IMG/VR virus record: IMGVR_UViG_3300046779_000420
Span: 1-40,282 of that record
DNA: 40,282 bases
Direction: 5' to 3' (one strand)
Source of the DNA: a virus
Lineage: Duplodnaviria; Caudoviricetes
Below the pieces are notes generated by a model that was not told the DNA's origin, ran no database searches, and was given only the letters and a program-made list of their open reading frames with translations. Positions 1,744-39,091 of the stretch are shown here, one piece after another (positions within the stretch are counted from its first letter, which is position 1; every line of letters begins with the position of its first letter). The translations under genes were made by a program, and so were the position numbers.

Positions 1744-1769
1744 TTTCTTGCTCTCCTGTTCGGTTCTTT

Positions 1770-1836
1770 GGTGGTGTCTGCCATCATCAGAGACGGGGAA
1801 ACACCCCCATCTGACCCCCTTTCGGGGGTTTCGGCT
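1770..1836 (-). ncRNA. Hammerhead ribozyme, type II, with pseudoknot
   Basis: Minus strand: GCC GAA A CCCCC-GAAA-GGGGG UC^ AGAUGGGG-GUGUUU-CCCCGUCU CUGAUGA U GGC AGACACC; complete core, stems I/II/III, and loop I complementary to the 3' tail AGACAC. Confidence 0.9.
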
Positions 1837-2016
1837 TTAGCGATAAGGTAATTCCTTGCCTGTGGTGGTCTGATACCAGCGAACCGCGAGACGCATAAAG
1901 TGCGGTGTGCATAATTGTTCAATATCTAAATCATCATTAAAATCTGCTTGTGGATTTGGGTTCTTGCAAAGTAAGCACTCGTCAGAGAGCCACGCGATTT
2001 CTTTGTATTCGCTCAT
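1837..2016 (-). CDS. Small CxxC-containing hypothetical protein (59 aa)
   Basis: Translated by hand MSEYKEIAWLSDECLLCKNP...ELPYR*; AGGGG RBS; stop abuts the hammerhead. Confidence 0.65.
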   Translation of the reverse strand: MSEYKEIAWLSDECLLCKNPNPQADFNDDLDIEQLCTPHFMRLAVRWYQTTTGKELPYR

Positions 2017-2031
2017 TTTTTCCCCTTTTCG

Positions 2032-2106
2032 GTTCGTCTTGCTAGGTAGTTAATCTAACCACCTACCACCCCACCCCGTCAAGCAACGGGGCGGGATAGT
2101 AAGTCT
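2032..2106 (-). ncRNA. Two-hairpin structured RNA motif, copy 2
   Basis: Hairpins at 2064-2101 and 2043-2065; compensatory changes relative to copy 1; same GACGAAC tail. Confidence 0.65.
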
Positions 2107-2298
2107 TTAGCGTGTGCGGTCGTATCGGCTAATCAAGCCCCAGGTGTCGTCTTGCTTCTTTGCTAGGTGTTCGCCTAGTTCTTGCATATATTTTGAAAGT
2201 TGCTCTAAGTTGGTCTCTGAGTTATCTATCTCATTGTGCCATTTTTCTAAAGCGATTAAAAGAAGTTCATAATCGTATTTATTAAGACGTTTTGCCAT
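2107..2298 (-). CDS. Hypothetical protein, first gene of the leftward early operon
   Basis: ATG with AAGGG RBS directly downstream of the promoter at 2343-2371. Confidence 0.7.
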   Translation of the reverse strand: MAKRLNKYDYELLLIALEKWHNEIDNSETNLEQLSKYMQELGEHLAKKQDDTWGLISRYDRTR

Positions 2299-2342
2299 TT
2301 CTGATTTTCCCTTTCAGTAGTTCTTTATTAACTTGTAGGAGA

Positions 2343-2397
2343 ACAATATCAAGCGTAAATCTAGAAGTCAAGCATTTTCTTTGTGAGTTGCGTCACA
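2343..2397 (-). promoter_or_regulatory. Sigma70-type early promoter plus perfect CRP/GlxR box
   Basis: TTGACT (2371-2366), 17 nt, TATTGT (2348-2343); TGTGA-GTTGCG-TCACA at 2382-2397. Confidence 0.7.
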
Positions 2398-2460
2398 TCT
2401 TTACCCAATGGATATTCAGATATATTTAGTTGAACTTTCAACTATCGGAACCCTTTCGGG

Positions 2461-2499
2461 TGTATGGTCATATGGTTTATATGTATGGTCATATGGTTT
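2461..2499. repeat. Direct repeat TGTATGGTCATATGGTTT x2 (21-nt period)
   Basis: Identical 18-mers at 2461-2478 and 2482-2499. Confidence 0.85.
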
Positions 2500-2812
2500 G
2501 AATTCTGATTTATATATAAGGGGGGCGAACTAGAACCCGTCGGGGGGATAGTCGCTCACCCTGCCTTTTGATTTATATTTATTTATCTCTCAGAAATCTC
2601 TTATTTATTATTAAGTAATCTCTAAAGTTACCCTAAGGTAACTATATATATTCTCTCAGGTATAACTATCAAGTAAAGGTCTAGGGTCTGGGTCTTTGAC
2701 CCCAGAGTATTTAAACTGCGGTCAGATGTAACTGTAACTATCTCCCTAAAATTTTCTGTTATATCAGGGGGCTATATATGCTCTGACCTGCGGTTTTACC
2801 GCATTACAATAG

Positions 2813-2828
2813 TGTGACTAAGGTCACA
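2813..2828. promoter_or_regulatory. Perfect CRP/GlxR-type box
   Basis: TGTGA-CTAAGG-TCACA. Confidence 0.6.
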
Positions 2829-3050
2829 CGATATTTTTGTTCGGTTTTACGTTTTGAACAGGTTATCTTATATGTATAGATATTTATATATCTATACGGA
2901 GCGTCGCTCCGCCTCTTGCGGGCTACGCGACGTAATATAATATATATTAAAAATAATATATATAATATAATATATATAATATGGGGATATTCTGCCGTTT
3001 TATTGGGACGTTATAGATAGGTTTTAACGGTAGGAATAACCGACTAGAAT

Positions 3051-3226
3051 TGCTGAACCTGGACTAGGGGCTGAGACCTCTCGCAGAAAGTTGAATACCT
3101 ACCCAGGGTGAAAAGATACGCTAACGGTGTAGGCGGGCACACCCACGAAGTCAAGAGTAGTGGGAGGAAAGGGTTCGTATCCCGACTGGTCTGACGAGAC
3201 CAACGTGTTCAAGTAACTATTCAGCA
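3051..3226 (+). ncRNA. Unidentified multi-stem structured RNA (~176 nt)
   Basis: Nested helices TGCTGAA/TTCAGCA and TTGAATAC/GTGTTCAA; internal hairpins CCCAC/GTGGG, GGG-TTCGTAT-CCC, TGGTCT-GACG-AGACCA; no credible ORF. Confidence 0.55.
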
Positions 3227-3227
3227 T

Positions 3228-3299
3228 AGCCTCATAGTTCAATGGACAGAACGCAAGGTTACGTACCTTGAGGTAGAGGTTCAATTCCTCCTGGGGCGC
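3228..3299 (+). tRNA. tRNA-Arg(ACG), atypical
   Basis: Cloverleaf: D stem GTTC/GAAC, anticodon arm CAAGG-TTACGTA-CCTTG, T loop TTCAATT; mismatches at 1:72 (A-G) and the first T-stem pair; no encoded CCA. Confidence 0.7.
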
Positions 3300-3314
3300 G
3301 ATTAAAGGAGCACA

Positions 3315-7791: not shown

Positions 7792-8209
7792 AGGTGGGAT
7801 GCGTCCAACTGCTCCGCAGAATAATCCAGCCAATATTTCAGCCACAGGTGGCGACGGTCAAAGTGGCACACAACCTGCACGCTATATCTCAGGTCTTCCT
7901 TACGGTCAAGGAGAAGCAACTTACAATCAACAGACTGCTGCTCCAATGGCAGGTCCTGCTAAGGCTGCAACAGCCGAACAAATGGGTACACCATTTATGG
8001 GTATGGAAGTTACTCCTCTTGCTGCTCCTACTGCACGTCCTGATGAGCCAATTACTGCTGGTATGGATTTCGGTGGAGGACCTGGAAGCGAAGCGTTGGC
8101 TTTACAGAATCAGCGCACTCTTTCTCAGATTCTTGCATCAATGATTGATATTGACCCAACTGGAGATGTTCAGGAGTTATACAATTACGTTGCCTCTAGA
8201 GGTTTGTAA
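7784..8209 (+). CDS. Hypothetical Pro/Gly-rich virion-associated protein
   Basis: Start MPRGG at 7784 with GAGGAGG RBS; low-complexity sequence. Confidence 0.7.
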   Translation: MPRGGMRPTAPQNNPANISATGGDGQSGTQPARYISGLPYGQGEATYNQQTAAPMAGPAKAATAEQMGTPFMGMEVTPLAAPTARPDEPITAGMDFGGGPGSEALALQNQRTLSQILASMIDIDPTGDVQELYNYVASRGL

Positions 8210-11200
8210 TGGCAAAAAATAAACTAACAGATATTGCTGGTTTATCGCCAGGAGTTGCCACCGCTGCCGCTCAAGCAAACCTATCTGAAAAAGATAAACA
8301 GCAACTTGCTGCCTTTGCTCAGTTAAAACAGACCCACGAATATCTTGCTACTTTGCCACAGAATGACGCTTATCGCTCTTTCTCTGCGCTACCTAAAAAT
8401 TATCAAAATGCTTTAACTACATTCTTTGACCCAAAGTATAGAGAAAAAGATTTAGGCTTCTTTGGCAATATTGCTAGAAGTGTAAAGTCCACAGCAAACT
8501 ATACAGCGACTGCTTTCAAAGAACTTGGTATGCAAATTGCTGGTGTTCCAATTAAGCCAACAACTTCTGCATCTCCAGCCGAAGCACTTCTTACACTTGG
8601 TTTAGCACTACCAGTTTCTACAAACAAAGAGACTGGCGTATCTAGTGGTGCGGGTAAAGTTTTAGAAACGCTTGTTCGTCCTCAAGAAAAACTTATCAAG
8701 CAACCTTACATTGCTGAACGTCTTGCTGCAGAGCAGGGCGAAGGTGGCTTACTACAATACGGCAAGTTCATTGCTGAGGGTGCTAAAGAATTATTACCTG
8801 GTGGACGTGACGCTAAAGTAACTGACGCTTCAACTACTTGGAAAAAGTATTGGGAACAAGCATCTGACCCAGAGAGCGCATACGACGAAGATAAGACTGA
8901 TGAGATTGAGCGTACCGCTCAAGCAGAATATGCTTTCGTTGCTAAAACTCTTGCAAGCAAAAAGAACTTTATTGATGTTTATGATGAGTTACTAGCAGAC
9001 CCTAAGCGTCTTGAAATTGTACAACGCTATACTTCAGGTCGTCCTGAAGATAAAGAAGTTGCTATTCAGGTTGGTCGTCTTGTAGAAGCGTACGAACGCT
9101 CCAAGATTAGTCCAGGTCGTGATATTGCTCGTGGAGTTTCTGATGCTTTATTTGCAGCGTTTCCATTTGAGGCTGAAAAAGCAATTCAAGGTAGCACTGC
9201 ATACAAGGCTTTCTTTAATACTATCTCTGGAACTGTAGACTTTACAGTTACCTTTGGTCTAGACCCACTGATTCTTCTTGGCAAAGCAAAGAAATCTGCA
9301 GACATTGCCCGCTTTGGTTTAATGAAACTTGGCGAAGACCCACGTAATTTAGATAAGGCTTGGCAGAATCCAACTGTTGTTCGCTATTGGGATGAAATTG
9401 GTAAGTTATTTGTGCAATACGAGAAGGGCAACATCCAGCAAAAGGGTGAAGCACTTACTAGAATTGCAGAACGCTTCCCAGAAATCAATCCTGACGTTGC
9501 ACTTTACCTAGCACCTAACATCAAGAACGCTGATGATGCTCTAGAATTCTTCAAAGGCGCAGATATTATTGATGTAATGAGCAAGGGTAATGTCGGTTTA
9601 CGCCGTGACCCACTTATTCCACGCTACACATTGGCTCGTGGCATCAAAGATTCGCTACGCGATAGAGCAGTTCAAATGCTTGGTACTGGAAAGTATAGCA
9701 TTGGTACGCTACCAAATACTGTTGATGATATTGCTAGAACATTAAATGAAAATCCTAATATATGGGCTATAAATTTAGGTTATCGTGAGGCTGAAAAGGC
9801 TGGGGCACTTACAGGTTTCCGCGAAGGAAAGCGATTCGTTGCTAAAGATACCAGCACATACGCAAAGATTGACCGCGTTGTGCGTCAATTTGCTATCGCA
9901 CCTAGCCAAGAGAAGTTAATTAAGATTTCAGATGCGTCTAGTGCTACTCAAGTTTACCGATTGGTAAGAACCGTAGCAGATAAGAACACAGCATCTATCT
10001 TCCGCGCTGCTTGGATTAATGCCACAGAGGGTCAGCGCCTACTTATGTATAAGGGAATTATCAAAACCTTATCTTATGGTATGGGTATTGACCTAACAGC
10101 CAGCGGTAAGCGTTTCTTAGATTCTATTGATAGTATGACTACTGAACTATATTCAGTAAACCAGAGCACTTTAGACTTAGGTGAGTTTTCACGTTTAGTT
10201 CGTACTACATCTAAGGGAAGCGCAGAAGTTCCGTCAGGTATTCGCGCTATTGTTGCAGACGCTACCGAAAAGGCAGATGCTGGTCAGTTAGCCGCACGCC
10301 TTGCTGCATCAACTGGTGCTGAGATGGCGGATATGATTTCTGAAGTTAATAAACTCAAGGTAATCAAGAAAGAATTAAAGGCTCGTAAGGCTGTATCTCC
10401 AGAAGAAGCAGCAATTATTGCTGAAACTGTAGAAGATATTAACAAGTCAATTGCATTGTACGGCGGTATGCTAGGCAAGACCCGTATGGCTCGCAAAGAA
10501 ATCAAGAAGATTATTGAAGATGTAGAGCCAGCAGATATTGATTTGTTCAATGCTGCAGAACTCAATGGTGGTCAGTATGCAGTTCGTGCATATCAGTTAT
10601 CTGATGCACGCTATATGCCTAACTTAATTGAATTACGTCAGTTTGAATTAAAGGGCAACGTACTTTCTGCACTAACTGGACGAGTAGGCGAAAGCATTTA
10701 CTCACAAAAGATAGTTGATATTTGGTCATATCTAAACCTATATCCTCGTCTAGGTATCAGAACAACCATTGAAGAAGTTGGAACATTTGGACTTATTAAT
10801 GGTACCAGTGGTGTTGCAAGATATATTCAGGGACGTTTAGCATCTCAGAAAATCCGTCAGGCTCAAGCACCTGGCTCTAAGGTAGCAGCATTTAGCCAAA
10901 AGGTTAAAGAAGTTAGCCCATTAGGAATCATTTCTAACCAGGTATATAAGATACTTGGCAAGAATTATTCGCCAGCAAAAATTGCTGCTATGGCTGAAGA
11001 TAAAGAACTTATGGCTGAAACCGTAGGCAAGGCTATGTTAATAGACCGTCTTACTCCAAAGTTTTTACGTACTGCTCGGGGTAAGCAAGCAGCCCTTGAT
11101 ATTGAAGATGCAATTCTAATAAATGCTATGCGTGTATCAGATGATATTAATGGCGCAGCATATAAGGCTGAATTCAAACAAGATACTGCTGAGACTACCA

Positions 11201-13512
11201 AGAATCTACTTAAGGATTATGGTCCATCTGTAGCCTATAACGTAGATATTGCTGAAGCACTAAAGAATCAAGATTTTGCTAAGGTTTATTCTCAGATTCA
11301 ATATAATCGTCCTGAGTTCTTGCTCAGTTGGTATATTGATTTGCATAATACAATCGGTAAGAAGAATATCTGGGGTAAGATTGTATTTGATAACATCTAT
11401 AAAAAAGAAGAAGATGTTATTGAAATCTTGGTTAATTACTTTGAGGGTGCTGGCAAAGGACAGGCTTCACGCTCTGCTATCTATGAAGCAAAGGGTCCAT
11501 ACGGTCTAGCAAAGGCTGTATACCTAGATGCTACTAACGCTCTCAGAGATTTTTCAGGTCGCCTTAATAAGAAACTCATAGAAGAGATTAAGGCTTCAGG
11601 TGGGATTAAGGACTTTAACTTCCAGCAACTAGCAAAGTATGAAGAGAACTATCAGTTCCCTAAGGCTGTGCTTGGTCGTGAACTTATTCCACTTACTCAG
11701 AATAAAGCATCTGGCGTAATTGACCGCATTATGAAGAATGGTTATGGCTGGATTGGTAAGCAAGTAGCACTTCTTGACCGCGAACCTATCTTCTACGGCA
11801 ACTATCTTATGTTCCGCGATAAACTTCGTGGTTATCAAAATAACTTATATAATGGATTCGTTGATTCAGGTATTGAAAAAGAAGCAGCAGAGAAGTTAGC
11901 CCGCACTCAAGCGGCTGAAGTTTCTGCTGATTTATCTAGATACCGAACTATTGGCTATATGGATAATGCTGATGTTCGCACAAACCTAGCCTTTAGTGTA
12001 CGTAACTTTGGTCGTTACTATCGTGCTACTGAAGATTTCTACCGTCGTGCTGGTCGTATTGCTAAGTATGAAAAAGAAGCGTTAATGCGTCTTGCTATTA
12101 CTAACCAGAGTTTCCAGCACTCAGGCTTTGTACACGAAGACGCTAATGGTGAATTGTATTTCACCTATCCAGGTGACGATATTCTAGGCTTTGCTCTAGA
12201 TAATACGCTCTTTAGATTCTTTGGAGTTAATACTGGACAGCCTTTGTCCGTTAACTTCGGTGGTAAAGTCAAGATGTTAACTCCATCTCTTGACCCAGAA
12301 TCAGCAGCATTACGACTTAGCGGTCCTTTGATTTCTGCACCACTTGCGGTTTTGAATAACTTGCCTGGTGTTGGTAACTGGTTACGTGCATTTGAACCAG
12401 TATTAACTGGTAGCCCACAAGATGTATCTTGGTGGCGTAAGTTAATGCCAATTAACGTACAGCGTACTATTGATATTATTGGTAGCCAAGAAGTAATGAC
12501 TGACCAGAAATACTCAGCATTAGTTCAGTCAGCACGTATGCTTAACTCTATTGGTCAGGGTCCTACCACTGGCGCAGAGATAGAACCATTTGCTAACAAA
12601 CTACTTACTCAAGCAACCAACATTATGTTCGTTCGCTTGATTGGTGGTCTAGGTGCACCTGCTTCTGTTCAGCAATTTGCTACAACAGATGTGCCTAAAG
12701 AGATGATTAATGCTGGATACTATACTTGGGATTCAGAATTTTCTAAGATTCTACAAAGATATGCTGGAGACCCAGAGGCTTACAGCCGAGCACTAACAGT
12801 CTTTGCTACCTTATATCCTACAAAGTTGGTTTATACAGTATCTAAGACTACCTCTGGTACAGAGGCTGGCTTCCAGAAGACTTATGAGGCTGCTAACTTT
12901 GTAAAGAATAACAAAGACTTTGTAGAAAACCACAAGCAAGCAGCAGCGTTCTTTATGCCTATCACTGGAACATCTGACCTAGAGGCTTATACCTACTTAA
13001 AGGCTCAAGGCTTCGTTAAGAATAAGATTCAAGAAGACTTCCTACGTGAGGCGTCTACTGCCGAGGCTCGTCAGATTTACAACGCACGTAAAGAATACTA
13101 CGACAATGCTATTACTAGCACCAACAGTATTGAGTTACGTCGCAGAGCACGTGCTAACTGGGCTAATGAGAAGAACTTCTTAAAGTCTACTTATCCATTA
13201 CTGGCACAGCAGTTAGAGAACAATGATGGATACAAGGCTCTAAAGCAAGAGGCTCTTGATGATTTACGTGGTGTTGTCTATGGAGATAAAGCACCTAATA
13301 AAGAATTGCAAAAGACTTTTGCTGCAATGATTTATGAATACGATTCTGCAAGAGCAGCACTTGATGCTAATGCAGGTGCATCTACTGCATCAGAAAATCG
13401 TAGAACACAGATTAAAGAAAACTTGCGTGCCTACTTAAAGCAGATAGCGGGACAAAATCCTAATGCTATCTCTTTATATTGGAACGTATTTGATGCTCTG
13501 ATTGGAGAGTAA
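8209..13512 (+). CDS. Large (1767 aa) putative internal virion / ejection protein
   Basis: Very long helical-looking ORF in head module; no tape-measure periodicity; function inferred from size and position. Confidence 0.6.
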   Translation: MAKNKLTDIAGLSPGVATAAAQANLSEKDKQQLAAFAQLKQTHEYLATLPQNDAYRSFSALPKNYQNALTTFFDPKYREKDLGFFGNIARSVKSTANYTATAFKELGMQIAGVPIKPTTSASPAEALLTLGLALPVSTNKETGVSSGAGKVLETLVRPQEKLIKQPYIAERLAAEQGEGGLLQYGKFIAEGAKELLPGGRDAKVTDASTTWKKYWEQASDPESAYDEDKTDEIERTAQAEYAFVAKTLASKKNFIDVYDELLADPKRLEIVQRYTSGRPEDKEVAIQVGRLVEAYERSKISPGRDIARGVSDALFAAFPFEAEKAIQGSTAYKAFFNTISGTVDFTVTFGLDPLILLGKAKKSADIARFGLMKLGEDPRNLDKAWQNPTVVRYWDEIGKLFVQYEKGNIQQKGEALTRIAERFPEINPDVALYLAPNIKNADDALEFFKGADIIDVMSKGNVGLRRDPLIPRYTLARGIKDSLRDRAVQMLGTGKYSIGTLPNTVDDIARTLNENPNIWAINLGYREAEKAGALTGFREGKRFVAKDTSTYAKIDRVVRQFAIAPSQEKLIKISDASSATQVYRLVRTVADKNTASIFRAAWINATEGQRLLMYKGIIKTLSYGMGIDLTASGKRFLDSIDSMTTELYSVNQSTLDLGEFSRLVRTTSKGSAEVPSGIRAIVADATEKADAGQLAARLAASTGAEMADMISEVNKLKVIKKELKARKAVSPEEAAIIAETVEDINKSIALYGGMLGKTRMARKEIKKIIEDVEPADIDLFNAAELNGGQYAVRAYQLSDARYMPNLIELRQFELKGNVLSALTGRVGESIYSQKIVDIWSYLNLYPRLGIRTTIEEVGTFGLINGTSGVARYIQGRLASQKIRQAQAPGSKVAAFSQKVKEVSPLGIISNQVYKILGKNYSPAKIAAMAEDKELMAETVGKAMLIDRLTPKFLRTARGKQAALDIEDAILINAMRVSDDINGAAYKAEFKQDTAETTKNLLKDYGPSVAYNVDIAEALKNQDFAKVYSQIQYNRPEFLLSWYIDLHNTIGKKNIWGKIVFDNIYKKEEDVIEILVNYFEGAGKGQASRSAIYEAKGPYGLAKAVYLDATNALRDFSGRLNKKLIEEIKASGGIKDFNFQQLAKYEENYQFPKAVLGRELIPLTQNKASGVIDRIMKNGYGWIGKQVALLDREPIFYGNYLMFRDKLRGYQNNLYNGFVDSGIEKEAAEKLARTQAAEVSADLSRYRTIGYMDNADVRTNLAFSVRNFGRYYRATEDFYRRAGRIAKYEKEALMRLAITNQSFQHSGFVHEDANGELYFTYPGDDILGFALDNTLFRFFGVNTGQPLSVNFGGKVKMLTPSLDPESAALRLSGPLISAPLAVLNNLPGVGNWLRAFEPVLTGSPQDVSWWRKLMPINVQRTIDIIGSQEVMTDQKYSALVQSARMLNSIGQGPTTGAEIEPFANKLLTQATNIMFVRLIGGLGAPASVQQFATTDVPKEMINAGYYTWDSEFSKILQRYAGDPEAYSRALTVFATLYPTKLVYTVSKTTSGTEAGFQKTYEAANFVKNNKDFVENHKQAAAFFMPITGTSDLEAYTYLKAQGFVKNKIQEDFLREASTAEARQIYNARKEYYDNAITSTNSIELRRRARANWANEKNFLKSTYPLLAQQLENNDGYKALKQEALDDLRGVVYGDKAPNKELQKTFAAMIYEYDSARAALDANAGASTASENRRTQIKENLRAYLKQIAGQNPNAISLYWNVFDALIGE

Positions 13513-20722: not shown

Positions 20723-22420
20723 ATGACTACACGTAAATACTCCTCTCGCTCACAGCAGTCAACACTGACTGGAGCAATCACCTCTGGTGCTACATCTATG
20801 ACTGTAGTATCAGGTACTGCGCTGTTAGGTGGTGTAACAATCCCGACAGGTACTACCTTTACTTTGGTAATTGACGTAGATACCGCGCTTGAAGAAATCG
20901 TAGACGCCACCGCCGTATCTACTAATACCTTTACCATCACTCGTGCAATAGACGGTTCGTCTGCTCAAGACCACTCAGCGGGTGCAGTCGTACGTCATAT
21001 GGCAATCGGTCGTGACTATCGTGATGCTAACCTGCACGCTGAAGCATCTGCTTACTACAATGATGGTAGTGGCTCAGGTCATACAATGCACGGCATTGGT
21101 TCAGGTGAGGGTGATGTAGTAGGTACTGCTAAGACACAAACTCTTACCAACAAGACTTTAACTTCCCCAACTATCTCTGACCCAACGATTACTGGTACAG
21201 CATCTGCTGGCGCAGTATTGGTCTTTGAGGGTACAACTGCTGACGCATACGAAACTACTCTGACTGTAGTTGACCCAACTCAGGATAATACAATCACACT
21301 GCCTAATACAACGGGCACAGTGGTAATTGTTGATGCAACTCAGACCCTAACCAATAAGACCCTGACCAGTCCTACTATCTCAGGTTCTCCAGTAATCACT
21401 GGTCTATCTAGCGCAGGTATGATTTCATCATCTGCTACCCCTAAAGATTATGTAGATTCAATTCTAGGCTCTGCTACCGCAGCAGCCACCTCTGCAGCCT
21501 CAGCAGCAGCAAGTGCTACAGCAGCGGCTACAAGTGCTACAAGCGCAGCAGCAAGTGCAACTTCGGCTGCTAACTCAGCAACTGCTTCAGCAACATCTGC
21601 ATCTGCAGCAGCGACTTCAGCATCATCTGCAGCAACTTCGGCTAGTGCTGCAGCAACTAGTGCAACTAGCGCAGCCACATCAGCGACAAGCGCAGCGGCA
21701 TCTGCTTTAACTGCAGCCAACTCAGTAGCAACAATTGCTGGCTATGCAACTACAGCATCTAACTCAGCATCTGCAGCGGCTACATCCGCTACCAGTGCTG
21801 CTGCCTCAGCAACCGCTGCTGCTACTAGTGCTACCTCTGCAGCAGCCAGCCAAACCGCTGCTGCTACTTCAGCAACTTCTGCAGCGGCTTCTGCTACTGC
21901 CGCTGCTACTAGCGCAGCATCTGCTGCGGTATCTGCAGCCAGTGCTGCAGCAGCAGTAACTACAGCAATCCAGGCAAGCATCATTGATGCTAAGGGTGAT
22001 TTGATTGTAGGCTCTGCAGCAGATACGGCAGCAAGACTAGGTGTAGGAACTGATGGCTATGTTTTAACTGCAGCATCTACTGCTACCTATGGAATCCAAT
22101 GGGCAGCGGCTGCAGCAACCTATACCGCTCCTACTCTTGGTACTACAACTCTTACCTCTGGCACAACAGTCTCAACAGTTGCAGCATTAACTTTAGATAA
22201 TGCAACTTTGACTGGAACTCTGACTGCAGGTGCTTCTTCAGGTACTAATGGTCAGTATCTAAAATCAACTGGCACTGGTGTACAATGGGGAACTGTTGAT
22301 GCTCTACCAAGCCAAACTGGAAACTCAGGAAAATATTTGACTACGAACGGCACAACCGCTTCGTGGTCAACAATCGTAACAGACCCAACTCCGTCAGTGT
22401 TTATGCTGATGGGCGCTTAA
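20723..22420 (+). CDS. Tail fiber protein with Ala/Ser/Thr heptad repeats
   Basis: QTLTNKTLTSP repeats, long AATSA repeats, DAKGDLIVG and LPSQTGNSGKYLTTNG fiber motifs. Confidence 0.85.
   Translation: MTTRKYSSRSQQSTLTGAITSGATSMTVVSGTALLGGVTIPTGTTFTLVIDVDTALEEIVDATAVSTNTFTITRAIDGSSAQDHSAGAVVRHMAIGRDYRDANLHAEASAYYNDGSGSGHTMHGIGSGEGDVVGTAKTQTLTNKTLTSPTISDPTITGTASAGAVLVFEGTTADAYETTLTVVDPTQDNTITLPNTTGTVVIVDATQTLTNKTLTSPTISGSPVITGLSSAGMISSSATPKDYVDSILGSATAAATSAASAAASATAAATSATSAAASATSAANSATASATSASAAATSASSAATSASAAATSATSAATSATSAAASALTAANSVATIAGYATTASNSASAAATSATSAAASATAAATSATSAAASQTAAATSATSAAASATAAATSAASAAVSAASAAAAVTTAIQASIIDAKGDLIVGSAADTAARLGVGTDGYVLTAASTATYGIQWAAAAATYTAPTLGTTTLTSGTTVSTVAALTLDNATLTGTLTAGASSGTNGQYLKSTGTGVQWGTVDALPSQTGNSGKYLTTNGTTASWSTIVTDPTPSVFMLMGA
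21470..21960 (+). repeat. Degenerate 21-nt coding repeat (A-A-T-S-A-x-x)
   Basis: Repeated AATSATS/AASATA units within the fiber gene. Confidence 0.8.
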
Positions 22421-22433
22421 GGAGAAATAATAA

Positions 22434-22760
22434 ATGGCAAAAAAAGTTCTTGGGCAATCAAACCCATCAGCAACAACAGCAACTACTCTATATACAGTAC
22501 CTGCTTCTAAGGAAGCGGTAGTATCAAGTATCTCTGTCTGTAACCTAGCATCATCATCTGCTACCTATCGTATTGCTATCCGCCCTGCTGGAGCAACACT
22601 GGCTAACCAGCACTACCTAGCGTATGATGTAACAGTAGGTGCAGCAGATACTACCATCATTACAGTTGGTATTACTCTTGCTACTACAGATGTTATTACT
22701 GTATACGCATCAACTGCTAACTTAGCGTTCTCTGCTTTCGGAGATGAGGCTTCTGTCTAA
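22434..22760 (+). CDS. Small beta-rich tail-associated protein (possible fiber-tip adaptor)
   Basis: TTLYTVP...VSSISVCN motif; AAGGAG RBS; lies between the fiber and the paralog array. Confidence 0.7.
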   Translation: MAKKVLGQSNPSATTATTLYTVPASKEAVVSSISVCNLASSSATYRIAIRPAGATLANQHYLAYDVTVGAADTTIITVGITLATTDVITVYASTANLAFSAFGDEASV

Positions 22761-23305
22761 TGTCGGTTACTAGTGCAAAGTCTGGCGCAACTGGCATCAG
22801 CCTTGCGCTAGATAACAACTATATGGAACCTATCGCTACTACGCTAGTAGGTAGTGGTGGGGTTAATACGGTTATCTTTAATGATATACCGCAGACATAT
22901 AAACATCTACAATTAAGGGTACTTTGTAAAAATGGTACTGGCACATATTGGGTAATTACTCAATTTAATAGCGATACTGGAAATAACTATTCTTATCACA
23001 ATATTTATGGTAGTGGTTCAGCAGTTGCTGCCGAAGGATATGCGGATAAGGCAGAATCTAATACGTTCTTAAATTCATCAAGTCAGTTTAGTGCTGGTAT
23101 TATTGATATATTAGACTACTCTAACACTAATAAATATAAAACATTAAGAGCGCTTGGCGGGTATGATGCTAATGGTTCTGGATATATTAGTCTTGCTTCT
23201 ATTGGTTGGCGTAACACCGACCCTATAACTTCTATTAAGTTATATTCTTATACAAGTAACTTTGCACAATATTCACGCTTCTCATTATATGGAATCAAGG
23301 GGTAA
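22760..23305 (+). CDS. Tail-associated paralog, type A1
   Basis: YKHLQLR, IIDILDYSNTNKYKTLR, C-terminal LYGI. Confidence 0.8.
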   Translation: MSVTSAKSGATGISLALDNNYMEPIATTLVGSGGVNTVIFNDIPQTYKHLQLRVLCKNGTGTYWVITQFNSDTGNNYSYHNIYGSGSAVAAEGYADKAESNTFLNSSSQFSAGIIDILDYSNTNKYKTLRALGGYDANGSGYISLASIGWRNTDPITSIKLYSYTSNFAQYSRFSLYGIKG

Positions 23306-23308
23306 CTA

Positions 23309-23818
23309 ATGGCTGCTAAAACTGGCACATACACTTTGATTGCAAGTACCACTATTGGAACAGCAACAGGAACGGTTACTTTCTCTTCAATTCCCGCTAC
23401 TTACACCGATTTAGTTTTAGTTATTCAATATCAAAGTGCTGCTAATTGTGTAGCAAATATAACTTTTAATAATGATACTGGTAGCAATTATTCAACTACT
23501 TATTTAAGTGGCAATGGTACTACTGCTGCATCTGCTAGAGGTTCTAATGAAACTTCTATTGGAACTGTATATACAGGGGCAAGTTTCAATGGTAAATTGG
23601 GACAAGTAACTATTCAAGTACAAGACTATTCAAATGCTACTACATATAAAACAGCAATTAATCGTACTTCTTCGGCTGGTGGAGAAGCAACTGCAACTGT
23701 TGGACTATGGCGTTCTACTGCTGCTATAAATCGTGTAGATGTAACAGGTACAAGTGGTGCTACATTTGCATCTGGCTCCACATTCAAACTCTATGGCATA
23801 GAGGCGGGAAATAACTAA
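23309..23818 (+). CDS. Tail-associated paralog, type B1
   Basis: YTDLVL, YSNATTYKT, LWRSTAAI, LYGI. Confidence 0.8.
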   Translation: MAAKTGTYTLIASTTIGTATGTVTFSSIPATYTDLVLVIQYQSAANCVANITFNNDTGSNYSTTYLSGNGTTAASARGSNETSIGTVYTGASFNGKLGQVTIQVQDYSNATTYKTAINRTSSAGGEATATVGLWRSTAAINRVDVTGTSGATFASGSTFKLYGIEAGNN

Positions 23819-23820
23819 CT

Positions 23821-24312
23821 ATGGCGCTACAACTATTTAAGATTGCTGATACTACGGTTGCTACCCCACAGGCTAGTATAGATTTTAGTTCCATACCTAG
23901 TGGATATACTGATTTATATTTAGTCTTATCTGGTCGTTCAACTACTACGGTTGACTATTGTGAAGTAAGATTTAATGGTGCAAGCACCAATCTTTCAGGT
24001 AGGTATTTATATGGAAGTGGTGCTGCTGCTGCATCTGGTACTTTTCAACCTTTTATTTATATGAACTCAAGTGGTAATACTTCTAACTCATTCAGCAATT
24101 CAAGCGTTTATATCCCTAACTATACTAGTAGCAATTACAAATCCGTATCAATAGATAGTGTTTATGAAAATAACGCTACTACTGCATATTGTAATTTACA
24201 GGCTGGTTTATGGTCTAGCACTTCTTCAATAAATCAAGTTACTTTAGTATGCACTGGTTCTAGTCAAACCTTTGCTGCTGGTTCAACTGCTACCCTATAC
24301 GGAGTTCTATAA
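23821..24312 (+). CDS. Tail-associated paralog, type C1
   Basis: YTDLYLVLSGR, YIPNYTSSNYKS, ENNATT, AGLWS, LYGV. Confidence 0.8.
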   Translation: MALQLFKIADTTVATPQASIDFSSIPSGYTDLYLVLSGRSTTTVDYCEVRFNGASTNLSGRYLYGSGAAAASGTFQPFIYMNSSGNTSNSFSNSSVYIPNYTSSNYKSVSIDSVYENNATTAYCNLQAGLWSSTSSINQVTLVCTGSSQTFAAGSTATLYGVL

Positions 24313-24893
24313 TGGCTATTAGAAGTCTCAAGTCTGGCTCATTCAGCCGAAGTGCTCAGGTTGGCAATAGCATTATCCTGCCTGGAGATTATGAATCTAT
24401 TGCTACTGCCGTTGGTACAGGTTCTAGTAATACTATTACTTTTACTTCCATACCTAGTACATTTACTCATCTACAAATTCGTATGGTGGCAAGCAATACT
24501 AATGCTTCAACGGCTTGGTCAGGTTTGCTTGTTAGATTTAACTCAGATTCTGGAGCAAACTACGCAATCCATTATGTTAGAGGCGGTGGCACAGTGGCTA
24601 GCGCAGGTAGTGGAACCGCTCAAACTTCGGCATTTATTGATAACGTGGTAAGTCGTTCAGGTAATACTAATACTTTAGCCACAACAATTATTGACTTGCA
24701 CGATTACGCTTCTACAAATAAGTATAAAACTCTTAGGGCTATTGGTGGAATTGACTTAAATGGTTCAGGAGTTATAAACTTTAATTCTGCATTATGGTTA
24801 AACACTGCTGCAGTTACCTCTATTAGTTTAGTCGCTGAGCAGGACAACTGGACAACTACTTCTAAATTTGCACTTTACGGAATCCGAGGTTAA
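24312..24893 (+). CDS. Tail-associated paralog, type A2
   Basis: FTHLQIR, IIDLHDYASTNKYKTLR, LYGI. Confidence 0.8.
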   Translation: MAIRSLKSGSFSRSAQVGNSIILPGDYESIATAVGTGSSNTITFTSIPSTFTHLQIRMVASNTNASTAWSGLLVRFNSDSGANYAIHYVRGGGTVASAGSGTAQTSAFIDNVVSRSGNTNTLATTIIDLHDYASTNKYKTLRAIGGIDLNGSGVINFNSALWLNTAAVTSISLVAEQDNWTTTSKFALYGIRG

Positions 24894-24895
24894 CT

Positions 24896-25387
24896 ATGGC
24901 AGCAGGTAGAACATATACCCCGATAGCAACTACTACGCTTAGTAGCGCAAACGACACAGTAACTTTTTCATCTATTCCAAGCACTTATACAGATTTAATA
25001 TTGATTTCTAATGTCGTGCCAACTTCAAGCCCTTATTTATTCTATCGGATTAACTCTGATAGTGGCACAAATTACTCACGCACTACGCTTTATGGCACTG
25101 GCTCATCTGCTGGTTCAAGCAGATTTTCCAACGAAACTTATGCCTATATTTCAACTTCAACAGTAAGCGGAATTAGCACCTGTATCACTCATTTTGAGAA
25201 TTATTCAAATACAACTACTTATAAAACCCTTTTAAGCCGTTGGTCAGATGCAGGCAATAACGTTGCCGCAGTAGTTAATTTATGGCGTTCTACTTCTGCA
25301 ATTAACAATATTGTAGTAACTACGACTGGTTATTCAACCTTTGCAGCGGGTTCAACCTTTACACTCTACGGAATTGCGGCGGCATAA
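24896..25387 (+). CDS. Tail-associated paralog, type B2
   Basis: YTDLIL, YSNTTTYKT, LWRSTSAI, LYGI. Confidence 0.8.
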   Translation: MAAGRTYTPIATTTLSSANDTVTFSSIPSTYTDLILISNVVPTSSPYLFYRINSDSGTNYSRTTLYGTGSSAGSSRFSNETYAYISTSTVSGISTCITHFENYSNTTTYKTLLSRWSDAGNNVAAVVNLWRSTSAINNIVVTTTGYSTFAAGSTFTLYGIAAA

Positions 25388-25390
25388 ACT

Positions 25391-25906
25391 ATGAGTTATA
25401 CATATTCTAAAATCGCAAGCGTAACTGTAGGCTCAGGTGGAGTAGGCAGCATTGACTTCTTGGCTATACCGCAGAATTATACTGACTTAGTATTAAAAGT
25501 AAGCGCAAGAAGCAATCGTTCTCCTCAGTCTTATGAAACATTATATTTTTCAATTAATGGTTCAAACTCTAATGCTACCTTTAGGGAATTGTTGGGTGAT
25601 GGTGCTTCAACGTATTCGCAATCAGGCACTGACCCTGACTTCGGACAAGCACCTGGCAATGGTGGCACTGCCAATACATTTGGTAATGCAGAAGCCTATT
25701 TCCCGAACTACTCGGGTTCAACCTATAAATCATATAGCGCAGATGCGGTATCTGAAAACAATGCTACTACTGCTTGGAGTTCTTTAGTTGCTGGGTTATG
25801 GTCACAAAGCGCACCAATTACAAGCATTAGAGTTCGTCCAGGAGTGGGAACTCTTTTATTGCAATACAGCACAGCAACCTTATACGGGATAAAGGCGGAA
25901 GTATAA
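25391..25906 (+). CDS. Tail-associated paralog, type C2
   Basis: YTDLVLKVSAR, YFPNYSGSTYKS, ENNATT, AGLWS, LYGI. Confidence 0.8.
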   Translation: MSYTYSKIASVTVGSGGVGSIDFLAIPQNYTDLVLKVSARSNRSPQSYETLYFSINGSNSNATFRELLGDGASTYSQSGTDPDFGQAPGNGGTANTFGNAEAYFPNYSGSTYKSYSADAVSENNATTAWSSLVAGLWSQSAPITSIRVRPGVGTLLLQYSTATLYGIKAEV

Positions 25907-26511
25907 TGGCATCTATCAGTCTTAAATATAAAAGCAAGAATGGTAACCTGACTGCTCCAGGTGATGCAGACCCAGGCGCTATGATTCCTATTGCTACTGT
26001 TACAGTTGGTAGCGGTGGTAGTTCAACTATTACCTTTAGTAACATTCCACAGAACTATGAACATTTACAAGTTAGATTAATTGCTAAACAAGACTATGGT
26101 AGCGGTACTGCAGATTATTCAAACTTAAATGTGCGATTTAATTCCGATAGTGGCTCAACAAAGGCTTCACACCGTTTAAGCGGCAATGGAAGTACTGCTA
26201 GCGCTGGAGCGTCTACCACAGATACTTATGGTCGTTTAGGTTATCAAACAGTTCCAAATACTTGGTCAGGATTTGCTAATGTGTTTGGTGTTGCGGTTAT
26301 TGATATTTTAGATTATGCAAATACTTCTAAATATAAAACTACTCGTTCACTTGCAGGATTTGATGGCAATGGATATGGATATATAAACCTAAATTCATCA
26401 GTCTGGCAATCAACATCTGCTATTACTCAAATTGACTTTACTCCTGATTTACCATCATTTACTCAATATACCACCTTTGCCCTATACGGTATCAAGAGAG
26501 CAGGTGCATAA
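25906..26511 (+). CDS. Tail-associated paralog, type A3
   Basis: YEHLQVR, VIDILDYANTSKYKTTR, LYGI. Confidence 0.8.
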   Translation: MASISLKYKSKNGNLTAPGDADPGAMIPIATVTVGSGGSSTITFSNIPQNYEHLQVRLIAKQDYGSGTADYSNLNVRFNSDSGSTKASHRLSGNGSTASAGASTTDTYGRLGYQTVPNTWSGFANVFGVAVIDILDYANTSKYKTTRSLAGFDGNGYGYINLNSSVWQSTSAITQIDFTPDLPSFTQYTTFALYGIKRAGA

Positions 26512-27011
26512 TGCCACTACCATCTACTATGACCCCGATTGCTACTAATACCCTAACTGCAAATTCTGGAACAGTAACATTTTCTAGCATACCACAGGGA
26601 TATACTGATTTAATATTAATTACTAATTCTAAAACAACCAGTGGTGGCAATTTAACAATGCAACTTAATTCGGATACTGGTACTAATTATTCTATGACCG
26701 AAGTATATGGTGATGGAAGTACAGCAGCAAGCAATAGAAATACAAGTCAAACATCTATGTCTATTGCTAGATATGGTAATCCAGATACAGCAAATTTTAA
26801 CTCAGTTAGTATAAGTCACATTATGAACTATGCTAATTCAACTACATATAAAACTGTATTGACTAGAGCAAGCAATGCTAATACAGGACAAGGAGCAGAC
26901 TTAACTGTATGTCTATGGCGCAGCACTGCTGCTGTAACTACAATTAGTGTATCGTCTGGAACTTTTGTTATAGGTTCTACATTCACCCTATACGGCGTAA
27001 AGGCAGCATAA
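26511..27011 (+). CDS. Tail-associated paralog, type B3
   Basis: YTDLIL, YANSTTYKT, LWRSTAAV, LYGV. Confidence 0.8.
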   Translation: MPLPSTMTPIATNTLTANSGTVTFSSIPQGYTDLILITNSKTTSGGNLTMQLNSDTGTNYSMTEVYGDGSTAASNRNTSQTSMSIARYGNPDTANFNSVSISHIMNYANSTTYKTVLTRASNANTGQGADLTVCLWRSTAAVTTISVSSGTFVIGSTFTLYGVKAA

Positions 27012-27013
27012 CT

Positions 27014-27514
27014 ATGGCTAATATGATTCCTATTCAGACAGTTACCGTAGGTAGTGGTGGGGCTAGCAGTATTGATTTCAATAACATTCCACAGATTTAT
27101 ACCGATTTAGTATTTAAAGTATCTGGTAGAAACTCTTCTACTGGTGCAAATAATTTTCTGTTTACTTTTAATGGTTCTACTTCATCATTCACATTGCGTC
27201 AATTATATGGAACTGGTGCAGCAGCAGGTTCAACCACAACACCTGCACGTTATGCTGGTGAATATACTGGTACAGATATGACTACATCTACATTTTCTAG
27301 TGTAGATATCTATATTCCTAATTATACAAGTAGTAACTATAAATCTTATTCAGTAGATGACGTAACAGAAAATAATGCAACTACTTCTTATGCTGTATTG
27401 TCTGCAGGTTTATGGTCTAATACTGCACCAATTACATCTATTAGTCTTGCGCTAACAGGCGGAAGTCTAACACAATACTCTTCGGCTACTCTCTACGGTA
27501 TCCGTAAATACTAA
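27014..27514 (+). CDS. Tail-associated paralog, type C3
   Basis: YTDLVFKVSGR, YIPNYTSSNYKS, ENNATT, AGLWS, LYGI. Confidence 0.8.
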   Translation: MANMIPIQTVTVGSGGASSIDFNNIPQIYTDLVFKVSGRNSSTGANNFLFTFNGSTSSFTLRQLYGTGAAAGSTTTPARYAGEYTGTDMTTSTFSSVDIYIPNYTSSNYKSYSVDDVTENNATTSYAVLSAGLWSNTAPITSISLALTGGSLTQYSSATLYGIRKY

Positions 27515-27539
27515 CAACAACAACTAAGGAGCAACAACA

Positions 27540-27767
27540 ATGACCGACACCAAAATTGTCGTAAACTGTGAGACAGGGGAAACTCAAGTAGTTACTCTTA
27601 CCGCAGAAGAAATCGCACAGCGTGAAGCAGATGCAGCAGCATTCGCTGCAGAGCAAGCAGAGCGTGAAGCAGCAGAGGCTGCAGCAGCAGAAGCAAAGGC
27701 ATCTGCACAGGCTAAGTTAGCAGCACTAGGACTTACTGCTGACGAAATCGCAGCACTATCTAAGTAA
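27540..27767 (+). CDS. Small helical protein, possible fiber assembly chaperone
   Basis: VNCETGE...LTAEEIAQRE...KLAALGLTADEI; position after the fiber genes; AAGGAG RBS. Confidence 0.6.
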   Translation: MTDTKIVVNCETGETQVVTLTAEEIAQREADAAAFAAEQAEREAAEAAAAEAKASAQAKLAALGLTADEIAALSK

Positions 27768-27785: not shown

Positions 27786-28505
27786 ATGATAGGACCGAAA
27801 GAAACCGTTGCACTTGCTTGGTGCGACAATGGAACAGTAGATGGCAAGTTTGCCGAGGGGCTAATGAACGCCACCATCACTGGCGCAGCCAATGGTATGC
27901 CTATTCACACATCAATTCGTGTGCAAGGTAATCAGATTGGTCGTCAGCGTCAGGTGGCATTTGACCACTGGGCAGATAAAGTCAAAACTGACTGGCTACT
28001 ATGGGTAGATTCAGACATTGTTCTGAGCCTAGATGTAATAGCAAAGTTATGGCAGACAGCAGATAAGAACCTACGACCTGTCGTAAGTGGAGTTTACTTC
28101 ATCTCTAAGGAGAATGAGGGAACTCTTATGAAACCTTATCCTGTTCTATTCAATGACGTATCTGAGTTCCAGATTCAATACGTTCACCCACTACCTGATA
28201 ATGAAGTTATCAAAGTAGATTGTGCTGGCTTTGGTCTTGTCTTAATGCACAAGTCAATCATCCAGAAGATGCGAGATAAGTTCCCTGGCGAATCTATGTT
28301 CCTAGAAACTGGTGGCTCATCTGATGATGAGTTTATTGGTGAGGACATTATCTTCTTCAGAAAGATGAAAGCAGCAGGAGTTCCACTGCACGCACACACT
28401 GGGGCAAGAGTTAAGCATATGAAGCGTTTTAGTCTGGACTATGACTACTACGCAATGTACTGGACTATGCAATCAATGCAAGAGAAATTCAAACAACAAG
28501 GCTAG
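27786..28505 (+). CDS. Glycosyltransferase, GT-A fold (GT2-like)
   Basis: WLLWVDSDI (DxD), AGFGLVL, GEDIIF, HTGARVKH motifs. Confidence 0.85.
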   Translation: MIGPKETVALAWCDNGTVDGKFAEGLMNATITGAANGMPIHTSIRVQGNQIGRQRQVAFDHWADKVKTDWLLWVDSDIVLSLDVIAKLWQTADKNLRPVVSGVYFISKENEGTLMKPYPVLFNDVSEFQIQYVHPLPDNEVIKVDCAGFGLVLMHKSIIQKMRDKFPGESMFLETGGSSDDEFIGEDIIFFRKMKAAGVPLHAHTGARVKHMKRFSLDYDYYAMYWTMQSMQEKFKQQG

Positions 28506-38307: not shown

Positions 38308-38732
38308 CAGTAATGTCCCGTTCTTAAATGGTAAACCCAAGCCTTGCAGGGAGACCCATTATAGCGGTGTTCAATATACTGATACGCTCTGAGTATCTGT
38401 ATCGCAGGGTCGCTTGATGTCTCACTTAAGACCTGACCAATACCATAAGCACTTGACTTAGGGTTATCTGCTAGGTGGTCAAACCTACTCTCTGCGGTAA
38501 ATAGTTTCTCAATGCAAGTCCAATGCTGACCACGCCAACCATAGCCAGCCCAAGCAAACTCCCTAGCCATATCTTTGTTGGCTTGTTTTTCTGCCATAGT
38601 TGCTTTCGTTCTTGCCTTGATAATCGGTATCTTTATGGGGATAATTTTTTCTGGCGTTTCTATTAAGGGTGCTGACCACACCCAAATCAACGCCACAATA
38701 AATGCAATTACCATTGGCTTTCGTTCTTGCAT
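38307..38732 (-). CDS. Membrane-anchored lytic transglycosylase (SLT-like, actinobacterial type)
   Basis: N-terminal TM; C...ESRF...NPKSSAYGIGQ...YIEHRY..PCKAW. Confidence 0.85.
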   Translation of the reverse strand: MQERKPMVIAFIVALIWVWSAPLIETPEKIIPIKIPIIKARTKATMAEKQANKDMAREFAWAGYGWRGQHWTCIEKLFTAESRFDHLADNPKSSAYGIGQVLSETSSDPAIQILRAYQYIEHRYNGSPCKAWVYHLRTGHY

Positions 38733-39091
38733 TAAACACCTGAGTTTCTTCTTCTGCTTAGTCTGTTTAAGCCAGCCTTGAGCCAGCGTTCGTTGTAGTA
38801 GCGGTCATTGGCACGCTTACCTAACATTCTGCGTCTATCTGAGAACAACATACCGCCCCAAATACTACCAGCGTGTAGGTTATCAGTCTTAAGCCCCTCT
38901 GCGAGGCACTCTTTACGGACGGGACACGCCGAACAATACTCAAGTGCTACCGATACACGCAGGATAGTCTCTGCTCGTTCGTCAGGTTGGCTAGGTAATG
39001 GGTAGTCATACCACCATAGGTTAGGGTCATAGTGTCGCTGGCACTCTGCGTCCTTATGCCAAGTCGGTAACTTCTCTACGCTATCAAACAT
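38732..39091 (-). CDS. whiB: WhiB-family transcription factor
   Basis: AEC...CSACPVRKECL (four Cys) and GSIWGG turn, basic tail. Confidence 0.88.
   Translation of the reverse strand: MFDSVEKLPTWHKDAECQRHYDPNLWWYDYPLPSQPDERAETILRVSVALEYCSACPVRKECLAEGLKTDNLHAGSIWGGMLFSDRRRMLGKRANDRYYNERWLKAGLNRLSRRRNSGV

What the first reader, a model, noticed from the sequence alone, without database searches (positions are those of the whole stretch)
22434..27767. Nine tail-associated paralogs in strict (A-B-C)x3 order: candidate heterotrimeric receptor-binding cassettes
Seen: nine consecutive, closely packed 163-201 aa genes share one framework (IAT.T...I.F.SIP..Y..L ... W....I..I ... LYG[IV]) but fall into three subtypes: A (HLQ.R, IDxxDY...KYKT.R...G.D.NG, longer N-terminal extension), B (YTDL.L, Y.N.TTYKT, LWRST) and C (YTDL....S.R, Y.PNY....YKS...ENNATT, AGLWS), ordered ABC-ABC-ABC. 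Same-subtype copies are well diverged in their middle segments, so this is not a recent duplication. The array follows the fiber gene and a 108-aa beta protein and ends with a chaperone-like gene. Established: phage fiber tips are normally homotrimers. Inference: each ABC triplet forms an obligate heterotrimeric head docked through the A-type N-terminal arm, giving three specificities, or up to 27 if subunits mix, i.e. host-range diversification without an invertase or DGR.
Basis: partly seen in the sequence, partly recalled or inferred. Interest (0 to 1): 0.85.

Follow-up and report, generated by a model that had tools for sequence, protein, structure and literature searches.

The report
Swappable three-chain heads on phage fibres
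This lake phage carries three copies of a three-gene unit (A-B-C) that relatives keep in this order and exchange as a block for single glycine-rich genes; each unit likely builds a three-chain host-binding head that likely hangs on the tail fibre by a short arm on A, which would explain a very large, unnamed family of phage proteins.

Summary
The nine genes split into A, B and C. In related viral loci, 649 of 651 unique neighbour pairs follow A-B-C-A. The context adds more. After the 108-aa gene, relatives have ordered slots, each marked by its own N-terminal arm. A slot holds either one glycine-rich (PF21722) gene or arm-A plus B plus C. The window fills all three slots with ABC. A distant branch fuses three such domains into one chain (60 of 66), and lone homologues sit at the end of fibre stalks. 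Inter-chain covariation exceeds controls. Best reading (0.65): each ABC is a 1:1:1 head docked by A's arm, probably binding the host. Free 27-way mixing is doubtful (0.2). The cultured Planktophila phages E7 and F5 carry one ABC, published only as 'three DUF2541 proteins' in a variable island, so this is testable. The scan had not reported this family on other DNA.

The parts
20723..22420 (+). 565-aa fibre protein; likely carrier of the assembly
   Evidence: phrog_38058 tail fiber E 4e-115; N-terminal 250 aa 71% identical to phage E7
22434..22760 (+). 108-aa protein; inferred adaptor on which the three arms dock
   Evidence: weak hits to tail-fibre PHROGs 11338 and 693; followed by arm-bearing genes in order 1-2-3 in 51 of 54 loci examined; no solved relative by sequence
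22760..23305 (+). A1, 181 aa: arm type 1 plus beta-sandwich domain
   Evidence: arm scores 11.9/-1.7/3.5 against arm 1/2/3 profiles trained only on glycine-rich genes; AlphaFold2 model pLDDT 82, residues 1-18 under 50
23309..23818 (+). B1, 169 aa, no arm
23821..24312 (+). C1, 163 aa, no arm
24312..24893 (+). A2, 193 aa: arm type 2 plus domain
   Evidence: arm scores 9.4/28.0/6.8
24896..25387 (+). B2, 163 aa
   Evidence: ESM Atlas neighbours are unnamed viral clusters, some fused to PF21722 or fn3
25391..25906 (+). C2, 171 aa
25906..26511 (+). A3, 201 aa: arm type 3 plus domain
   Evidence: arm scores 0.8/-0.7/17.2
26511..27011 (+). B3, 166 aa
27014..27514 (+). C3, 166 aa
27540..27767 (+). 75-aa partner gene (p75); likely assembly factor or small subunit, one copy for three triplets
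   Evidence: follows the last ABC within 1.3 kb in 183 of 187 unique cassettes with room downstream, and 4 of 5 lone homologues; present in 30 of 32 loci with ABC and 1 of 17 without; nearest named cluster only 0.84, XkdW in 27% of members, a lead only

Best explanation
Each A-B-C triplet likely folds into one 1:1:1 three-chain beta-sandwich head that likely hangs, by the short N-terminal arm found only on A, on one of three predicted slots of the 108-aa protein at the tail fibre, where it likely binds the host surface. Shown: the order, the three slot-specific arms, the block exchange of ABC for a single glycine-rich gene with the same arm, the all-beta predicted fold, and the tie to the 75-aa gene. 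Inferred: a slot takes one arm, but the fold works as a trimer, as it likely does at the end of ordinary fibre stalks. Splitting the head into three different chains lets a trimer hang on a single arm. The 75-aa protein likely assists assembly. Cassettes and single subunits are exchanged by recombination, which would retune host range.
For: (1) Order: 649 of 651 unique neighbour pairs follow A-B-C-A (AB 313, BC 301, CA 35); the other 2 are distant lone homologues upstream of A; loci were anchored separately on A, B, C and the adaptor. (2) Slots: arms ascend 1-2-3 in all 51 loci with scorable arms of 54 examined. Slot 1 holds A in 11 and a glycine-rich gene in 38; slot 2, 10 and 36; slot 3, 26 and 11. 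Arm profiles trained only on glycine-rich genes place the window's A1, A2, A3 in slots 1, 2, 3. (3) Units of three arose twice: 60 of 66 P0290-family proteins have exactly three tandem domains, the other 6 have fewer in the same order, none has 4 or 5 within the 277-884 aa searched. Their domains branch apart from A/B/C (SH-aLRT 97, quick tree). L403 has three such genes, each one ORF. (4) 3 of 5 lone homologues follow a fibre stalk, and BFVD matches include tail-fibre and collagen-repeat proteins. (5) Type-specific, nearly invariant polar residues sit at alternating strand positions. (6) Inter-chain covariation with z>6: 12/11/14 pairs against 4/5/3 (neighbour swap) and 1/0/1 (random), on one patch near the termini. 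A173 R goes with B119 D in 30 of 34 against 2 of 264; 6 of 8 independent pairs agree, none oppose. (7) The E7/F5 cassette lies in a variable island proposed for host recognition (PMC10202952).
Against: Gene order and co-occurrence also arise for proteins that act in sequence. The covariation has no handedness (overlap 51 cyclic against 52-60 flipped), and part of it is ancestry (A175-B119 keeps z 10.7 after the neighbour swap). The A173/B119 pair was picked after the fact, and A's end lies next to B in the DNA, so joint recombination could mimic it. P0243 has the domain in pairs (2+2), not threes. 5 of 34 complete arrays show only two arms, and another lineage has two slots. Structural matches to C1q/TNF trimers (best Z 7.5, rmsd 2.5, 98 aligned) are tied with the GH32 beta-sandwich (Z 7.8, rmsd 3.1, 112 aligned), within the tool's background range. 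B and C sometimes carry their own glycine-rich domain, which fits an adaptor role. No proteomics, structure or binding data were found.
Confidence: 0.65

Rival explanations
1. ABC is a heterotrimer on the fibre, but a structural branch point or spacer, not the receptor-binding part; binding is done by glycine-rich domains attached to it or by the fibre.
For: B and/or C carry a C-terminal glycine-rich domain in several loci (L084, L100, L108; PF21722 in P0121). C-fn3-A fusions (104 of the 120 best longer hits; seen in DNA at L130) link one triplet to the next like a scaffold.
Against: All nine window proteins lack such domains, and no glycine-rich gene lies in the array. ABC replaces the glycine-rich gene slot for slot. 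Loops are highly variable.
Confidence: 0.14
2. A, B and C are separate homotrimers or monomers that stack or act side by side; order is kept by co-regulation and co-transfer.
For: Lone homologues on fibre stalks are likely homotrimers. A's invariant H-x-Q-x-R recalls the galectin sugar-binding motif (recalled, not from a call); galectins match at Z about 6.6, so each type's conserved face could be its own sugar site.
Against: Only A has an arm, and the three arms differ. No orphan A, B or C away from contig ends was seen in 78 A-anchored and 75 C-anchored loci. Single-chain triple forms exist. Covariation crosses types.
Confidence: 0.1
3. The heads are virion parts but sit on the capsid or another appendage rather than the tail fibre, or are not virion parts at all.
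For: A distant triple-domain homologue, P0244, begins with a head-decoration-like region (phrog_2647, E 2.5e-28). Location rests on gene neighbourhood alone.
Against: The cassette follows the fibre gene and adaptor in the window and in E7. In the other main context it follows a fibre-like gene (63 of 121 upstream neighbours; phrog_8780 minor tail protein).
Confidence: 0.11

Closest known systems
'Three proteins encoding DUF2541' of Planktophila phages E7 and F5 (PMC10202952; OX376640, OX376641)
   Same: Same family and same locus: E7 reads fibre, adaptor, glycine-rich, glycine-rich, A, B, C, p75. [quoted passage not shown]
   Different: In the text and rows I saw, the paper does not describe three subtypes, a fixed order, arms, slots or a complex. 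The HHpred rows seen were not significant (probability 28.9 and 9.2), and Pfam gave no DUF2541 hit.
DSLV2 virophage tripartite tail proteins (PMC12724248)
   Same: Three consecutive paralogous genes of about 200 aa, kept in order in relatives, shown to co-purify as a receptor-binding heterotrimer.
   Different: Needle-shaped T4 gp37-like fold with the collar domain PF07484. The ABC proteins have no Pfam hit and a predicted globular beta-sandwich. No slot exchange is described in the parts I read.
Mycobacteriophage Mysterious gp35/gp36/gp37 (PMC13252515)
   Same: A beta-sandwich heterotrimer from three adjacent genes in an actinobacterial phage.
   Different: Six copies form a baseplate bowl of a siphophage. 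tblastn of B2 against 50,697 phage records hit only E7 and F5. The structures were not compared directly.
Straboviridae gp38 adhesins (PMC12032242)
   Same: A monomeric glycine-rich adhesin hung on a fibre by an N-terminal attachment domain: a working model for the glycine-rich genes that alternate with ABC.
   Different: One adhesin per fibre tip, no alternative three-gene head. Homology of PF21722 to gp38 was not shown (no PDB sequence hit of that kind).
CBA120 TSP1-4 branched tailspike complex (PMC8825819)
   Same: Several exchangeable receptor-binding units dock on one hub in a fixed hierarchy (abstract).
   Different: The units are large tailspikes docked through XD domains, not small heads on 20-residue arms.
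C1q globular head and TNF/C1q-type trimers
   Same: Three paralogous beta-sandwich chains A, B, C making one head (recalled); C1q-family chains rank high in the fold search.
   Different: Z 6.8-7.5 only, tied with lectin-like sandwiches; about 100 of 160 residues align.

Membership tests
DUF2541 (label used in PMC10202952) | Match to the Pfam profile | tested here: not met
   No such hit for the nine window proteins at E 0.01 or for the three E7 proteins at E 1
DSLV2-type tripartite collar heterotrimer | [quoted passage not shown] | tested here: not met
   No Pfam hit; predicted compact all-beta domain
DSLV2-type tripartite collar heterotrimer | Three consecutive paralogues in conserved order | tested here: met
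   649 of 651 neighbour pairs
C1q/TNF-like trimeric head | C1q/TNF jelly-roll fold | tested here: inconclusive
   4oul_A Z 7.5, rmsd 2.5, 98 aligned; tied with 1uyp_A Z 7.8, rmsd 3.1, 112 aligned
C1q/TNF-like trimeric head | Trimer with first and last strands at the axis | tested here: inconclusive
   Covariation lies on the first and last strands but has no handedness; no complex model was obtained
Galectin / lectin-like beta-sandwich | Fold and sugar binding | tested here: inconclusive
   9fxz_A Z 6.6, rmsd 3.2, 117 aligned; binding cannot be tested here
Mysterious gp35/36/37 baseplate heterotrimer | Homology to gp35-37 | tested here: inconclusive
   No mycobacteriophage hit by tblastn of one subunit, B2; no direct structural comparison
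Branched receptor-binding complex (CBA120 type) | Several exchangeable binding units with position-specific N-terminal docking parts | tested here: met
   Met at the gene level only: slot-specific arms shared by two kinds of head
Branched receptor-binding complex (CBA120 type) | XD domains and tailspike bodies | tested here: inconclusive
   No sequence match of the adaptor profile to solved structures; the adaptor was not folded
Branched receptor-binding complex (CBA120 type) | Presence in the virion and receptor binding | not testable with these tools
   Needs proteomics, cryo-EM and binding assays
Invertase or DGR tropism switch | Recombinase or reverse transcriptase gene with repeats | tested here: not met
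   None among 51 window ORFs scanned, of 101 listed; repeats inside the array reach only 69-76% over 51-157 nt

The most novel reading that the evidence does not exclude
The virion carries a three-slot hub in which A is fixed by its arm while B and C chains from different cassettes mix, so one genome makes up to 27 kinds of binding head by protein assortment alone, with no DNA rearrangement.
Probability: 0.2. Interest if true: 0.9.

Novelty: new variant of a known kind. Interest (0 to 1): 0.76.

Why it matters
The family is very large: 34,909 clusters at 50% identity match the B profile, yet the nine proteins have no Pfam or PHROG hit. It occurs in cultured phages of 'Ca. Nanopelagicales', among the most abundant lake bacteria (PMC10202952). 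If the reading holds, it names a host-recognition module of these phages and shows a design I did not find in print: numbered slots that accept either a one-chain adhesin or a three-chain head. It also gives a reason for a homotrimer to turn into a heterotrimer, namely hanging a trimer on one arm. E7 and F5 make the structure and the mixing question testable.

Tried and rejected
AlphaFold2 on residues 1-527 of database protein P0121 (A, B, C in one chain, 12 rows) folded three domains but did not place them: pLDDT 67, pTM 0.41. This is inconclusive, given a shallow alignment and 2-3-residue linkers. The short A-B, B-C and A-B-C 'fusions' in the protein database were rejected as evidence: those I inspected have Q where the stop would be, P0121's cluster holds a separate 181-aa protein, and no such junction was found in viral contigs. 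Foldseek against PDB gave nothing clear (best E 6e-4, TM 0.37-0.41); VIA-align gave no Z of 8 or more; a PDB sequence search with the B profile gave one chance hit. A test for a cyclic direction of covariation failed. No homology between B and the adaptor. In 185,579 prokaryote genomes only 8 loci matched, all in metagenome-assembled records, so a cellular role was dropped. My first ORF callers missed GTG starts and gave false gaps (L032, L126); counts were redone stop to stop. In runs X3, X5 and X7 contig depth over 23001-27500 is mostly below that of the flanks, and in X3 a 3,400-letter contig lies on the window only to 22893; no contig joins across, so I do not count it as evidence. crAss001, phi92, A-1(L) and phiKZ heterotrimers are A2B hubs or wedges, not comparable. 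The HFTV1 fibre, a Z 6.6 match, is a homotrimer.
Full report
OBSERVATION. The window is a phage sequence with terminase, portal, capsid, fibre and endolysin genes and a WhiB gene. Its capsid protein is 79% identical to that of the cultured 'Ca. Planktophila' phage E7. An actinobacterial lake host is therefore likely (inference). The nine ORFs at 22760-27514, their motifs and their ABC-ABC-ABC order are as described. The tree groups them by type; identity is 41-52% within and 25-38% between types. None has a Pfam or PHROG hit.

ORDER IN RELATIVES. I fetched viral loci anchored on the 108-aa gene (80), on B (80), on A (79), on C (79) and on a C-fn3-A fusion (80). Type profiles were trained on the window and L001-L080, then applied to all loci. 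Counting unique neighbour pairs (both domains at least 120 aa, gap at most 1.1 kb, exact duplicates and the window left out), 649 of 651 follow A-B-C-A: AB 313, BC 301, CA 35. The 2 others are distant lone homologues before an A. Short fragments were dropped from that count; in the unfiltered count on 157 loci the odd pairs (AA 2, Ab 1, bB 1, bA 1) trace to split genes, a contig end and a lone homologue. Arrays hold one, two or three triplets. The loci are related and some are near copies, but the first 147 complete triplets form 122-130 clusters at 90% per type. In nine-gene relatives the window's A1, A2 and A3 are mostly closest to the A of the same position, so the three cassettes are old. 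Single subunits also move: L005 and L006 share a B at 99% with A at 55% and C at 56%. In five relatives the ABC genes are 40-59% identical to the window's, against 84-85% for the 75-aa gene in four and 93-96% for the adaptor; the adaptor figure is inflated because it was the search anchor.

SLOTS. Downstream of the 108-aa gene lie genes with three kinds of N-terminal arm of about 20 residues. An arm is followed either by a glycine-rich domain (PF21722 in the two E7 examples) or by an A domain, and then B and C follow. Arm profiles trained on 10 loci that have only glycine-rich genes assign the window's A1, A2, A3 to arms 1, 2, 3 (A1's score is modest, 11.9). Of 54 loci of this lineage, 51 had scorable arms, all in ascending order. 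Slot 1 holds A in 11 and a glycine-rich gene in 38; slot 2, 10 and 36 (2 other); slot 3, 26 and 11 (2 other). Of 34 complete arrays 29 have three arms and 5 have two (the window and the training loci are in these counts). A sister lineage has two slots, again with either head. Each head type has its own helper gene: the 75-aa gene occurs in 30 of 32 loci with ABC and 1 of 17 without, and a 120-aa gene in 34 of 36 loci with glycine-rich genes and 0 of 13 without (49 complete arrays of 81 loci). So one ABC is the genetic equal of one glycine-rich gene. Monomeric glycine-rich adhesins hung on a fibre by an N-terminal domain are known (gp38, PMC12032242); that these PF21722 genes work the same way is my inference.

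FOLD. AlphaFold2 gives A1 an all-beta domain (pLDDT 82) with a low-confidence arm. BFVD holds 178 matches at E 0.001 or better, several in proteins labelled tail fibre, Stf repeat or collagen repeat. No solved structure stands out: GH32 beta-sandwich Z 7.8, C1q domains Z 6.8-7.5, galectin Z 6.6. Each type has its own nearly invariant polar residues at alternating strand positions, for example 49/51/53 H-Q-R in A, 132 R in B and 132 D in C, while loops vary freely. I read this as a type-specific interface on one sheet; a sugar site is the alternative.

WHY THREE. Lone distant homologues exist in these loci: 3 of 5 follow a fibre-stalk segment and 4 of 5 are followed by their own 75-aa gene. This suggests a homotrimeric fibre head as the plain form. 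A separate branch fuses three domains in one chain: 60 of 66 proteins have domains 1-2-3, the rest fewer in the same order, none more, though 277-884 aa was searched. Those domains branch apart from A/B/C (quick tree of 59 sampled rows), so the triplication happened twice. L403 carries three such genes after a 1,234-aa gene, again nine domains. Against this, P0243 has pairs. C-fn3-A fusions make up 104 of the 120 best longer hits, a list that favours two-domain proteins; one unique case is confirmed in DNA as A, B, C-fn3-A, B, C.

COVARIATION. Mean-field coupling on 298 unique triplets recovers strand pairings within chains and gives 12, 11 and 14 inter-chain pairs at z>6 for A-B, B-C, C-A, against 4, 5, 3 when the partner comes from the nearest other triplet and 1, 0, 1 at random (one draw per control). 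The signal sits on positions 20-27, 45-48, 119 and 173-182 in all three pairings. It shows no handedness, and part is ancestry. A173 R pairs with B119 D in 30 of 34 triplets against 2 of 264 (both K); 6 of 8 independent pairs agree and none oppose, sign test p about 0.03. The pair was chosen after the fact. In the window only triplet 1 has R/D, which argues against free mixing.

MECHANISM. Shown: order, arms, slot exchange, helper-gene tie, predicted fold. Inferred: fibre, then adaptor, then three single arms, each carrying one ABC head that binds the host. A trimeric head on a single arm needs one armed and two unarmed chains, which would favour three genes. Confidence 0.65; scaffold role 0.14; other location 0.11; separate homo-oligomers 0.10.

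WHAT IS KNOWN. E7 and F5 each carry one ABC; PMC10202952 calls them three DUF2541 proteins in a variable island perhaps tied to host recognition. Heterotrimeric tail parts are in print for DSLV2 and Mysterious, branched binding complexes for CBA120. Ten paper searches found no description of this family as a triplet, of the arms or of the slots; the library lacks most subscription papers. Seen: PMC10202952, part 1 of 2 of the text, passages and 3 supplement rows (that file was cut when stored; 4 further DUF2541 places and Fig. S3 not seen); PMC12724248, abstract and Results part 1 of 2; PMC8825819, abstract; passages only of PMC13252515, PMC12032242, PMC10172136, PMC13450770, PMC10966104, PMC13250141 and 10.1101/2024.12.09.627619; PMC13419713, a stub without the term. 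The C1q chain make-up and the galectin motif are recalled.

VERDICT. A real, strictly conserved module in a very large unnamed family (34,909 clusters). New variant of a known kind; interest 0.76.

Noticed in passing
L403 3728-5290, 6257-7834, 7904-9481: Three genes, each with three tandem domains of this fold in one ORF, after a 1,234-aa gene: nine domains by an independent route.
   Followed up: partly
L130 4213-5478 (also L133): C joined through a fibronectin-III domain to the A of the next triplet, which would tether two heads in series.
   Followed up: partly
L084 6237-10342, L100 7992-10708, L108 8507-9880: B and/or C extended by a C-terminal glycine-rich domain; A extended by N-terminal fn3-like segments.
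   Followed up: partly
L028 about 12600-12960, L029, L074 5486-6879: Small ORFs with HNH-like look inserted between A, B and C without breaking the order; family not scanned.
   Followed up: no
L077 8438-8956 and 10189-10965; L105 6147-6857; L329 3051-3725: Lone homologues, three with a fibre stalk, each followed by its own 75-aa gene.
   Followed up: yes
L047 9866-10228, L169 about 10253-10627: A 120-aa gene (phrog_7759) tied to the glycine-rich heads, 34 of 36 against 0 of 13; likely their assembly factor.
   Followed up: partly
L033/L034 slot 2, L044/L051 slot 3: Arms carrying a third kind of head (321-421 aa), with different small genes behind them.
   Followed up: no
window 27786-28505: Glycosyltransferase family 2 gene right behind the array, also in E7 and F5 (60% identity).
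   Followed up: no
window 38732-39091 (-): WhiB gene, a marker of actinobacterial phages.
   Followed up: partly
window 1730-3314: About 1.6 kb without an ORF of 70 aa, T-rich on the + strand, between the leftward genes and the terminase.
   Followed up: no
window 8209-13512: 1,767-aa gene with no Pfam or PHROG hit between portal and capsid genes.
   Followed up: no
BFVD A0A516KYE7, A0A516KYE9, A0A516KYD7: Three matches of 172-201 aa with close accession numbers, possibly a distant triplet; also matches in Methanobacterium phage psiM2, Rhizobium phages and a giant virus.
   Followed up: no
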